Positions 34,108-35,748 of a stretch of 64,000 nt of DNA are shown here, piece by piece. The notes under the pieces are model-generated. The model had not been told where the DNA came from. It searched no databases and was given only the letters and a program-made list of their open reading frames with translations. The translations under genes and the position numbers were made by a program. The stretch comes from a plasmid, in NCBI RefSeq assembly GCF_056712565.1, contig NZ_JBWXXM010000004.1; one strand, 5' to 3'. How positions within the stretch are numbered: position 1 is the first letter of the stretch; the number at the start of each line of letters is the position of its first letter.

Positions 34108-34739
34108 CCAGAATCACTGAAGAGCGCATATCAGAGATTATTTCCCGTATCGAAATGTATGGTCACGGTGCTGGATATACGGCAGATGAAGTATTGGAAA
34201 TAGCCCAGCAGATGCTGGCCTTGAGACAAAAAGAGCAACATGAAAGTAATACGTGTAGATTGAATTTTGAGCATTGGCTGGAACAGCAACGCGGAAAAAT
34301 CGATGTGGACTGTGGTTGTGTGTCCACTGAAACATTCATGCACTGGCTGCGGGTAGCTTACGAGGCTGGCAACTATCCGGATATTCCGGATAGTTCGGTG
34401 CCAGCGCCAGGAAAGGGCGTCACCGGTGAACGTATCCGCATTAAGCCGCATGTTTATCGCGAACTGGTTAACCGTCTCCACGATACAGCGATCAAGTGTG
34501 CTGGCACCCAGCAATTACGAGAAAGAATTAGCCGTGTTTTGGGCGACGTTATTACACCAGATCATCATAAACAAGCCGAGAAAAGTGACCTGGAAAGGTG
34601 TCACCTTGAGGCGGCATTAAACATTAAGCCGGGGCATACGCTTGGCATTATTGATGCACTATTGGTTCATAAGATGGCCAGGGCTTTATTGCCGCTGGTG
34701 GCTGAAAAGCATGAGGTGGACCATGCCAACGAAAGCTGA
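34089..34739 (+). CDS. hypothetical protein
   Basis: 216-aa ORF. Confidence 0.45.
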   Translation: MAQKEMTRITEERISEIISRIEMYGHGAGYTADEVLEIAQQMLALRQKEQHESNTCRLNFEHWLEQQRGKIDVDCGCVSTETFMHWLRVAYEAGNYPDIPDSSVPAPGKGVTGERIRIKPHVYRELVNRLHDTAIKCAGTQQLRERISRVLGDVITPDHHKQAEKSDLERCHLEAALNIKPGHTLGIIDALLVHKMARALLPLVAEKHEVDHANES

Positions 34740-35006
34740 ATTACAGGTGCGCGTAGATGAGCTGAAAAAGAGAACGCGAGCCTCAAAAAAATGCTGTCGC
34801 GGGCGGAAAGGGAATTATCAGGCAAATTATTGCCAGAAGAACTGCCACCAGCAGATATACTAGATCGAGTGTCCCAGTGGATGAAGTCTTTTGGTTTACC
34901 GTGGGAGGCTTTTTGGTGCTACGACCATCGCAGATGGTGTGATGAACTTGATAGCAATTTTCCCTACTTTGCGGAAGGGAACACCTGCCCTCAATGCAGG
35001 GGATAG
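34729..35006 (+). pseudogene. small coiled-coil / Cys-containing protein split by frameshift at an A-run
   Basis: Frame 1 MPTKAELQVRVDELKK.. and frame 2 ..ENASLKKMLSRAERELSGK..CPQCRG join into one about 93-aa protein if one extra A is present at 34771-34775. Confidence 0.3.
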
Positions 35007-35341
35007 CATTTGACGAAATCGATCACCCTATCCTGAACTTCAGAAAGAAGGTCTTTTTCACGCGCCAGGACGTCAGGATATTGACGTTCTGGCCTTACCA
35101 GATGCCGGAGCTTCCCATTAAGCAGAATGGCCTCAGAAAACACTTTTACGCTGTGCTTTATCCCCTCTGTTTCACTTTTCAGCGTCAAAATAAAGCGCAA
35201 TTGCTTATTAGCCTGATTCGGATTCAATACACGAATTTGCAGTTCGTCTATGCTGTTTCGCAATGGGATTGATGCCACCACACTGGTGCAGTCTCTGATT
35301 GTCTGAATTGAACGGCTAACATTGAGAACGTTATTGTGCAT
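34991..35341 (-). CDS. hypothetical protein on opposite strand
   Basis: 116-aa ORF with balanced composition, convergent with upstream plus-strand genes; no strong RBS. Confidence 0.3.
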   Translation of the reverse strand: MHNNVLNVSRSIQTIRDCTSVVASIPLRNSIDELQIRVLNPNQANKQLRFILTLKSETEGIKHSVKVFSEAILLNGKLRHLVRPERQYPDVLAREKDLLSEVQDRVIDFVKCYPLH

Positions 35342-35373
35342 GTGCCTGATCCACTAACTCCTGGAGGTTTCTT

Positions 35374-35625
35374 GTGTCAGATCGAAATATAGCAGCTAAA
35401 AGCCAGGAAGAGCGAGACAAGGTGAACGTAGACCTTGCCGCCAGCGGCGTTGCTTACAAAGAACGGCTGAATATACCTGTGATTGCAGAGCAGGTGGCCC
35501 GTGAGCAACCGGAAAACCTGCGCGCCTATTTCATGGAACGGCTACGGCACTACCGGCAGTTAAGCCTCCAGTTGCCAAAAGGGAGCGATCCGGTGTATCA
35601 GAACGAGGATGCACCAAAAAAATAA
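35374..35625 (+). CDS. hot: DNA polymerase III theta-subunit homolog (HolE-like)
   Basis: 83 aa from GTG with GGAGG RBS; [43 protein letters not shown] matches HolE. Confidence 0.8.
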
Positions 35626-35712
35626 CGGCAAGATGGGGGAGAAATGTGATTAGCCCCCAGCGTGGCGCGCCTACAAACCCCGCTTTCACAAACTATGCCT
35701 TTTCAATGTATA

Positions 35713-35728
35713 CTGTATGAATAAACAG
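35713..35728. promoter_or_regulatory. LexA box (SOS operator) upstream of humD
   Basis: CTGTATGAATAAACAG fits CTGT-N8-ACAG, about 20 bp before the humD start. Confidence 0.75.
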
Positions 35729-35748
35729 TATCATTGAGGTAAAACGCT

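What the first reader, a model, noticed from the sequence alone, without database searches (positions are those of the whole stretch)
34991..35341. Well-formed 116-aa ORF on the opposite strand at the end of the variable block
It is convergent with upstream plus-strand genes and ends 16 nt inside the preceding gene. Its amino-acid composition is much more protein-like than the overlapping plus-strand frame. It could be an independently regulated accessory gene such as a toxin, inhibitor or immunity function.
Basis: inference. Interest (0 to 1): 0.3.

Follow-up and report, generated by a model that had tools for sequence, protein, structure and literature searches.

The report
Orphan small gene of GNAT cassette
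The 116-codon reverse-strand ORF is a real, conserved gene of P1-like phage-plasmids, and it is a lone copy of the small first gene of a widespread, uncharacterised two-gene cassette whose second gene looks like an acetyltransferase, so it may act as an antidote or inhibitor, though that is untested.

Summary
ORF 34991..35341 (-) is a genuine protein gene: RefSeq WP_000551789.1, RCS47 gp049, D6 orf106, phrog_2594. It lies 32 nt divergently upstream of hot (Pol III theta homologue) in a P1-like phage-plasmid. Relatives at 27-50% identity exist across Enterobacterales and Acinetobacter. Substitutions fall mainly on third codon positions of the minus frame (7/4/27). An AlphaFold model is confident (pLDDT 84.6).

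P1-like elements carry the small gene alone, and acquired it twice from different clades, both times beside hot. My best reading, by inference only, is that the cassette works like a GNAT toxin-antitoxin or defence pair and the orphan acts as a trans antidote or inhibitor. Interest is moderate.

The parts
34991..35341 (-). Coding sequence of the 116-aa protein (13.4 kDa, pI 9.3). It equals WP_000551789.1, RCS47 gp049 and D6 orf106, and belongs to phrog_2594. Family motifs are R10-S-I-Q-T-I-R-D-C-T19, F50-I-x-T53, V65-K-x-F-x-E70 and P84-x-x-Q-Y-P89.
   Evidence: AlphaFold2 pLDDT 84.6, pTM 0.79
35342..35373 (.). 32-nt spacer between the divergent start codons of the ORF (ATG 35341) and hot (GTG 35374). 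It holds both ribosome-binding regions, including GGAGG for hot. The spacing is kept in all P1-like alleles examined.
35374..35625 (+). hot, a homologue of the DNA polymerase III theta subunit and the conserved divergent neighbour. Any promoter for the ORF must lie inside its 5' coding part.
35386..35394 (-). Candidate extended -10 element (TGCTATATT on the minus strand) 44 nt upstream of the ATG, inside hot. This was read by eye and was not found by the consensus scan, so it is low confidence.
   Evidence: sequence read directly; one search found no sigma-70 site on the minus strand here
35293..35341 (-). First 49 nt of the ORF. In relatives that lack the rest of the gene, these 49 nt are retained together with hot. 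This marks a recombination junction and suggests that hot's upstream control region extends into the ORF.
   Evidence: H70; L017
34723..35006 (+). Convergent 94-aa gene (phrog_3797, WP_001142394.1 in relatives). It is frameshifted here by a 1-nt deletion after 34762, and its last 16 nt overlap the 3' end of the ORF.

Best explanation
SHOWN. The ORF is a genuine gene for a small, basic, soluble alpha/beta protein carried by RCS47/D6-type P1-like phage-plasmids. It belongs to an unnamed family, phrog_2594. In every homologue outside P1-like elements whose context I inspected, the family member is the first gene of a two-gene cassette. The second gene, which abuts or overlaps it (a 16-nt overlap in most copies), encodes a 240-262-aa protein with a divergent GNAT (acetyltransferase) fold. 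The cassette moves as a unit between SSU5-like phage-plasmids, a lambdoid prophage edge, chromosomal intergenic sites and small Acinetobacter plasmids. The window copy has no partner, so it is an orphan.

INFERRED. The cassette works like a GNAT-type toxin-antitoxin, addiction or defence pair, in which the small protein binds and restrains the acetyltransferase-like partner. The orphan in P1-like elements would then be an antidote or inhibitor acting in trans. It would protect the phage-plasmid, or the cell it enters, from the GNAT-like protein of resident SSU5-like phage-plasmids or prophages. It would be transcribed leftward from a promoter embedded in the 5' end of hot.
For: Real gene: see the observation check.

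Obligate pairing in other elements:
- SSU5_031/032 and Klebsiella and E. coli SSU5-like plasmids.
- A two-gene islet between rep and gppA in Erwinia and between tldD and aaeR in Pectobacterium.
- A Yersinia mobile element.
- The prophage edge next to int in E. coli chromosomes.
- A. baumannii plasmids, including a 9.9-kb RepM plasmid (small protein E 3e-25, partner E 1e-23 to 1e-29).

The partner is GNAT-like:
- AlphaFold2 pLDDT is 73.7.
- There is a sub-threshold Pfam Acetyltransf_1 hit exactly on the motif-A region, residues 120-158.
- A conserved Q/R-x-x-G-(L/I)-x stretch follows a beta strand.

A small gene upstream of and overlapping a larger enzyme gene is the classical type II TA layout (established knowledge).

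Orphan status: there is no partner or partner remnant in the window or in P1-like loci.

The orphan is maintained:
- It is present in 104 of 5426 complete E. coli genomes and 103 PLSDB plasmids, nearly all copies intact.
- It is under purifying selection.
- All family-invariant residues are kept.

Two independent captures of the small gene alone, both beside hot: the window type is closest to the PhiR41_1 clade (50% identity), and the paralogue P0116 is closest to the SSU5_031 clade (66%).
Against: - Nothing about toxicity, binding or acetyl transfer was tested.
- The small protein has no RHH/DUF1778 domain and no similarity to known antitoxins.
- Its many invariant polar residues (R10, S11, T14, T19, E70, Q87) look more like a catalytic or ligand-binding site than a typical fast-evolving antitoxin.
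- The orphan lacks the 20-25-aa C-terminal extension of partnered homologues.
- It is only 50% identical to the nearest partnered homologue, so cross-neutralisation is uncertain.
- In E. coli genomes the orphan and SSU5-type cassettes co-occur at chance level: 1 genome observed against 0.7 expected.
- PADLOC has no model for either protein.
- No clear promoter or terminator was found.
Confidence: 0.4

Rival explanations
1. The protein has a stand-alone activity that needs no GNAT partner. It might bind or modify a host or phage component (small molecule, nucleic acid or protein). In cassettes the GNAT-like protein would then be an accessory to it rather than its target.
Against: No match to any enzyme or binding family by sequence or by Foldseek. 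At 116 aa it is too short for a complete GNAT acetyl-CoA site, and no Q/RxxGxG/A motif is present. Adjacency to hot may simply reflect a recombination hotspot (variable region 8). Strict pairing everywhere else argues for a joint function.
Confidence: 0.3
2. The roles are reversed. The small protein is the effector, acting as a growth inhibitor or exclusion factor, and the GNAT-like protein neutralises it, for example by acetylation. P1-like elements would use the effector alone, kept silent in lysogeny, for host shut-off or exclusion.
For: The protein is highly conserved, as effectors tend to be. The gene is isolated on the opposite strand with no obvious constitutive promoter, which would be compatible with tight control.
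Confidence: 0.1
3. The ORF is a functionless leftover of a partial cassette transfer and is hitch-hiking next to hot.
For: The partner is missing. The second orphan lineage, P0116, has lost the PxxQYP motif. Some relatives keep only the first 49 nt. One Salmonella copy is full of frameshifts.
Against: The third-position bias of 7/4/27 and the intact reading frame across alleles that differ by 10% in protein sequence argue against decay. Of 104 E. coli copies, 103 cover at least 80% of the ORF. All invariant residues are retained.
Confidence: 0.1
4. It is not a gene at all: a chance antisense ORF over non-coding or plus-strand coding DNA.
For: The window has many shadow ORFs of similar length. 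No promoter or terminator consensus was found.
Against: Full-length homologues at 27-50% identity occur in different genera and genomic contexts. The codon-position pattern fits the minus frame. The structure prediction is confident. The overlapping + ORF has no NCBIfam or PADLOC hit.
Confidence: 0.01

Closest known systems
GNAT-toxin type II toxin-antitoxin systems (TacA-TacT, AtaR-AtaT, KacA-KacT, ItaR-ItaT)
   Different: The small protein is not an RHH/DUF1778 antitoxin, and no Pfam family hits it. The partner is 240-262 aa, against roughly 145-180 residues for the toxin chains matched, and fails all Pfam GNAT thresholds. Toxicity and tRNA acetylation are untested. The window copy has no toxin gene at all.
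Orphan antidotes carried by mobile elements (phage T4 Dmd against RnlA/LsoA; chromosomal 'anti-addiction' ccd of Erwinia against F-plasmid ccd). These examples are from my own knowledge.
   Same: A neutraliser gene is kept without its toxin on a competing genetic element. Repeated independent capture of the small gene alone by P1-like phage-plasmids fits that logic.
   Different: No sequence or structural relation. Neutralisation in trans was not tested. Co-occurrence with cassette-bearing plasmids is at chance.
phrog_2594 (PHROGs family of unknown function)
   Same: Full-length match, E 1.1e-46. The SSU5-like homologues hit the same family.
   Different: The family carries no annotation. The link to the GNAT-fold partner (phrog_3307) and the orphan state in P1-like elements are not recorded there.
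Phage P1 upfM-upfN-upfO and lxr (genes at the corresponding place around hot in P1)
   Same: Same position in variable region 8, directly upstream of hot. These are small accessory genes of unknown function.
   Different: No homology: P1 matches the window only within hot. P1's genes are on the plus strand and are followed by the late promoter LPhot, whose AAGTTACTT box is absent here.
GNAT acetyltransferase fold (Hat1, ESCO1, RimJ-like)
   Different: About 9% identity, nothing by Foldseek or sequence profile, no motif A, and too short to contain the beta5-alpha4-beta6 half of the cofactor site (inference).

Membership tests
phrog_2594 / unnamed small-protein family | Significant full-length match to the family profile | tested here: met
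   E 1.1e-46, residues 2-116 on profile positions 1-115 of 118. My own family HMM gives E 6.9e-39.
phrog_2594 / unnamed small-protein family | Conserved motifs RSIQTI..T, FIxT, VKxxxE, PxxQYP | tested here: met
   All are present in the window protein. T19 and E70 are invariant in 53 sequences.
Small + GNAT-like two-gene cassette | Partner gene (phrog_3307 family) immediately downstream | tested here: not met
   No partner by tblastn or by HMM on six-frame translations of the window and P1-like loci. The roughly 30 kb of the element outside the window were not available, but no partner is annotated beside the gene in the records inspected.
GNAT-type type II antitoxin (TacA/AtaR/KacA) | RHH / DUF1778 DNA-binding domain | tested here: not met
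   No Pfam, NCBIfam or PDB sequence match. The predicted fold is a beta-sheet with a C-terminal helix.
GNAT-type type II antitoxin (TacA/AtaR/KacA) | Binds and neutralises a GNAT toxin | not testable with these tools
   Needs co-expression, pull-down or complex prediction. Structure-prediction jobs were exhausted.
GNAT acetyltransferase superfamily (for the 116-aa protein itself) | GNAT core fold | tested here: inconclusive
GNAT acetyltransferase superfamily (for the 116-aa protein itself) | Acetyl-CoA motif A (Q/R-x-x-G-x-G/A) and a Pfam GNAT profile match | tested here: not met
   No such motif in the 53-sequence alignment. No Pfam hit even at E 5.
GNAT acetyltransferase superfamily (for the partner protein of homologues) | GNAT core fold plus a motif-A-like segment | tested here: met
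Known anti-phage defence or anti-defence proteins | Match to a PADLOC model | tested here: not met
   No hits for the ORF, its paralogue or the partner.
Phage P1 upfM/N/O | Sequence similarity to the P1 genes at this locus | tested here: not met
   P1 aligns to the window only within hot.

The most novel reading that the evidence does not exclude
The small protein plus GNAT-like partner is a previously undescribed, widespread toxin-antitoxin or abortive-infection module of SSU5-like phage-plasmids, prophages and small plasmids, found from Enterobacterales to Acinetobacter. Its neutraliser would be a compact GNAT-like pseudo-enzyme rather than an RHH protein. P1-like phage-plasmids would have captured the antidote gene alone on two occasions, as a weapon in conflicts between phage-plasmids.
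Probability: 0.25. Interest if true: 0.7.

Novelty: new variant of a known kind. Interest (0 to 1): 0.45.

Why it matters
P1-like and SSU5-like phage-plasmids are common in clinical E. coli, Salmonella and Klebsiella and carry resistance genes. What decides which of them can enter or stay in a cell is largely unknown.

If the cassette is a GNAT-based addiction or defence module and the P1-like orphan is its antidote, this would add a new antitoxin type to the GNAT toxin family. It would also give a concrete, testable example of one phage-plasmid lineage disarming another.

Even on the conservative reading, the work assigns context and a fold to two 'hypothetical protein' families: phrog_2594 (104 of 5426 complete E. 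coli genomes and 103 PLSDB plasmids for the window-type gene) and phrog_3307 (375 PLSDB plasmids).

Tried and rejected
- Sequence-family searches of the ORF (Pfam, NCBIfam, PADLOC, PDB sequences) found nothing.
- Foldseek against the PDB found nothing significant. The afdb50 library was unavailable.
- A profile-profile comparison of the small family with the partner family showed no relation, so the small protein is not a detectable duplicate of the partner's N-terminus.
- I looked for a P1 late-promoter (Lpa) box near the gene. There is none within several kb, and the window total is at chance.
- The consensus promoter/terminator scan found no minus-strand promoter and only a weak terminator-like hairpin at 34854-34842.
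- The 69-aa database versions are not truncated genes. They are alternative start calls on identical DNA.
- Co-occurrence with SSU5-type cassettes in 5426 E. coli genomes: 104 and 37 genomes, union 140, so 1 shared against 0.7 expected. This is uninformative.
- A conserved leader upstream of partnered cassettes was tested for an Rfam family (none) and for a conserved RNA structure (weak, with an unfavourable covariation term). It is absent upstream of the window gene.
- Literature searches found no description of either protein family.

Full report
WHAT THE WINDOW IS. The 1-kb region around the finding is 100% identical to about eight E. coli records, seven of them plasmids of 93-100 kb. It is 98.8% identical to phage-plasmid RCS47 (genus Punavirus) and 96.7% identical to phage D6. 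The local gene order is: variable small genes, then the ORF on the minus strand, then hot, humD, phd, doc, pdcA, pdcB, lpa and pacA. This is the P1 arrangement, except that P1 has upfM/N/O on the plus strand and lxr where this element has the ORF. Published comparison of P1-like phage-plasmids lists pmgT-humD as one of eight highly variable regions (PMC9603915).

THE OBSERVATION. The ORF is exactly as described: 35341 (ATG) to 34991, 116 codons. It overlaps the end of the + ORF 34791..35006 by 16 nt. That + ORF is the distal part of a 94-aa gene (start 34723; WP_001142394.1 in relatives; phrog_3797). In this lineage the gene carries a 1-nt deletion after 34762. The ORF's ATG lies only 32 nt from the divergent GTG of hot (35374).

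IS IT A GENE? Length alone proves nothing, because the window has 107 ORFs of at least 100 aa. The positive evidence is as follows.
- PGAP and the RCS47 and D6 annotators call the ORF a gene: WP_000551789.1, gp049 and orf106.
- It matches phrog_2594 end to end, E 1e-46.
- An exhaustive HMMER scan of 1.8 billion representatives found full-length relatives at 30-45% identity.
- A profile search found 115 clusters, all in Enterobacterales and all labelled 'hypothetical'. Acinetobacter homologues were found later.
- A 53-sequence alignment shows sharp motifs: RSIQTIRDxT, FIxT, VKxxxE and PxxQYP. T19 and E70 are invariant.
- Against the most divergent P1-like alleles, substitutions fall 7/4/27 and 5/2/9 on codon positions 1/2/3 of the minus frame. 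The favoured positions are first positions of the overlapping + ORF 34994..35272, which has no NCBIfam or PADLOC hit.
- AlphaFold2 gives a confident alpha/beta model, pLDDT 84.6 and pTM 0.79.

The 69-aa database entries are start-codon choices on identical DNA, not truncations.

DISTRIBUTION. The gene is present in 104 of 5426 complete E. coli genomes, with 101 copies on plasmids. That is about a quarter of the 391 genomes that match the hot region. It is also in 103 PLSDB plasmids: Escherichia 86, Salmonella 13, Klebsiella 3 and Shigella 1. Of these, 102 are non-mobilizable, and those listed are mostly about 90-99 kb.

CONTEXT OF HOMOLOGUES, THE KEY RESULT. In every context outside P1-like elements that I opened, the family member is followed at once by a 240-262-aa gene (phrog_3307), usually with a 16-nt overlap. 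The cases are:
- Klebsiella and E. coli SSU5-like phage-plasmids and SSU5 itself (SSU5_031/032). There the pair follows the lysis genes and precedes parA.
- The Erwinia pyrifoliae chromosome, as a two-gene islet between rep and gppA.
- The Pectobacterium brasiliense chromosome, between tldD and aaeR.
- A Yersinia mobile element.
- The int-proximal edge of a lambdoid prophage in E. coli chromosomes.
- Acinetobacter baumannii plasmids of 111 kb and 9.9 kb.

A pair that travels as a unit into such different sites is a functional module. This is the typical behaviour of toxin-antitoxin and small defence systems.

THE WINDOW COPY IS AN ORPHAN. Neither tblastn nor an HMM over six-frame translations finds a partner or a remnant of one in the window or in ten P1-like loci. 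Partner-bearing plasmids are of the 100-120-kb SSU5-like class or from Acinetobacter.

The window protein's nearest relative outside P1-like elements is the partnered PhiR41_1 protein, at 50% identity. Some D6-like elements carry a second family member, P0116, on the plus strand just after hot. P0116 is nearest to the SSU5_031 clade, at 66% identity. P1-like elements therefore took up the small gene alone at least twice, from different donor clades, and both times next to hot. Both orphans lack the 20-25-aa C-terminal extension of partnered proteins. The end of that extension (WHLL/WLLH) is encoded by the same nucleotides as the partner's conserved MAPTL start. P0116 has also lost the PxxQYP motif, whereas the window type keeps every invariant residue.

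MECHANISM. What is shown: a real gene, family membership, obligate pairing elsewhere, a GNAT fold for the partner, the orphan state here, and purifying selection on the orphan.

What is inferred: the cassette works like a GNAT-type TA, addiction or defence pair with the small upstream protein as restrainer, and the orphan acts as a trans antidote for P1-like elements meeting SSU5-like elements or prophages in the same hosts.

Four points support the inference:
- The layout is classical for type II TA systems.
- The partner resembles known GNAT toxins in fold.
- The cassette is mobile and sits at lysogen-expressed 'moron' positions.
- An unguarded toxin could hardly persist intact on about 100 low-copy plasmids.

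Against it: the small protein is unlike any known antitoxin and is unusually well conserved. It is only 50% identical to the nearest partnered form. Co-occurrence with SSU5-type cassettes in E. coli is at chance, 1 genome observed against 0.7 expected. Nothing was tested experimentally. I put this reading at about 0.4. A partner-independent activity is the main rival at 0.3. Role reversal and a decaying remnant each get about 0.1.

EXPRESSION. With only 32 nt between the two start codons, each gene's promoter must lie inside the other gene. The consensus scan found no minus-strand promoter, and no P1 late-promoter box is nearby. By eye there is an extended -10 (TGCTATATT, 35394-35386, minus strand) inside hot, 44 nt upstream of the ATG. 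The same bases also encode Hot residues, so their conservation says nothing about promoter function. Relatives that lack the gene still keep its first 49 nt attached to hot, which suggests that hot's control region reaches into the ORF. Only transcript mapping can settle this.

COMPARISON AND NOVELTY. The gene's existence is already recorded as 'hypothetical protein'. Three things are new here: the link to a GNAT-fold partner, the cassette's wide mobility, and the repeated orphan capture. The closest known systems are TacAT, AtaRT and KacAT. The module resembles them in layout and toxin fold but fails their antitoxin-domain criterion, so I file it as a possible new variant and not as a member. 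Literature searches found no description of either family.

VERDICT. Interest is moderate, 0.45.

Noticed in passing
window 34723-35006 (+): The 94-aa gene that converges on the ORF (phrog_3797; intact in pE2865-1 and RCS47) is frameshifted here by a 1-nt deletion after 34762 (GAGC-TGAAAAAG against GAGCTTGAAAAAG). About eight E. coli records are 100% identical over this region and so carry the same deletion, which makes it a lineage mutation rather than a read error. Some records label the intact gene 'antitoxin PHD', which looks like an annotation error.
   Followed up: yes
L016 5001-5354, L017 5001-5354, L018 5001-5354: D6-like relatives carry a second, distant family member (P0116, 117 aa) on the plus strand 24 nt after hot. 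L016 and L018 have both copies. P0116 is closest to the SSU5_031 clade (66% identity) and has lost the PxxQYP motif.
   Followed up: partly
L008 5870-6003; L012 5870-6003; L027 3873-4006; L029 2870-3003; L019 4800-4920: The region upstream of partnered cassettes is conserved at the nucleotide level between Klebsiella, E. coli and Salmonella phage-plasmids and the Erwinia chromosome. Shared blocks are GTAGATTT, CGCATACTCGTAGCCTCTAAA, GGTCGCCG and ACGGCTAAGGTGGAAAC-ATG. This conservation is higher than in the coding regions. There is no Rfam match, and the consensus RNA fold is weak. It may be a promoter-operator or leader of unknown kind, and it is absent upstream of the window gene.
   Followed up: partly
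L028 713-1479 against L036 2854-3621: In the PhiR12_1 phage record the GNAT-like partner is split into 66-aa and 176-aa ORFs. The same cassette in ten E. coli chromosomes is 1 nt longer and encodes one intact 255-aa protein. The isolated phage may therefore carry an inactivating frameshift in the partner.
   Followed up: partly
L034 2006-3079 (A. baumannii 9.9-kb RepM plasmid); L035 2159-3223: The same two-gene cassette (106-108-aa small protein plus a 240-244-aa GNAT-like protein) occurs in 112 Acinetobacter plasmids in PLSDB. This takes the family outside Enterobacterales, which the word-indexed protein search had missed.
   Followed up: partly
L007 3001-3359 (Salmonella pSa1423-90k): This copy of the ORF is 93% identical but full of frameshifts and stop codons, with substitutions spread evenly over codon positions (6/7/6). 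It is either a pseudogene or a low-quality assembly.
   Followed up: no
window 35626-35748: hot is followed directly by humD. The LexA-regulated minus-strand gene lxr that P1 has between them is absent. A sigma-70-like site (TTCACA, 18 nt, TATACT; 35685-35714) lies upstream of humD.
   Followed up: no
NZ_CP093011.1 4426616-4427616 (hit H1): One of the 100%-identical matches is on a 5.2-Mb E. coli chromosome record, and 3 of the 104 E. coli copies of the ORF are chromosomal. This suggests occasional integration of P1-like elements, or mis-assembly.
   Followed up: no
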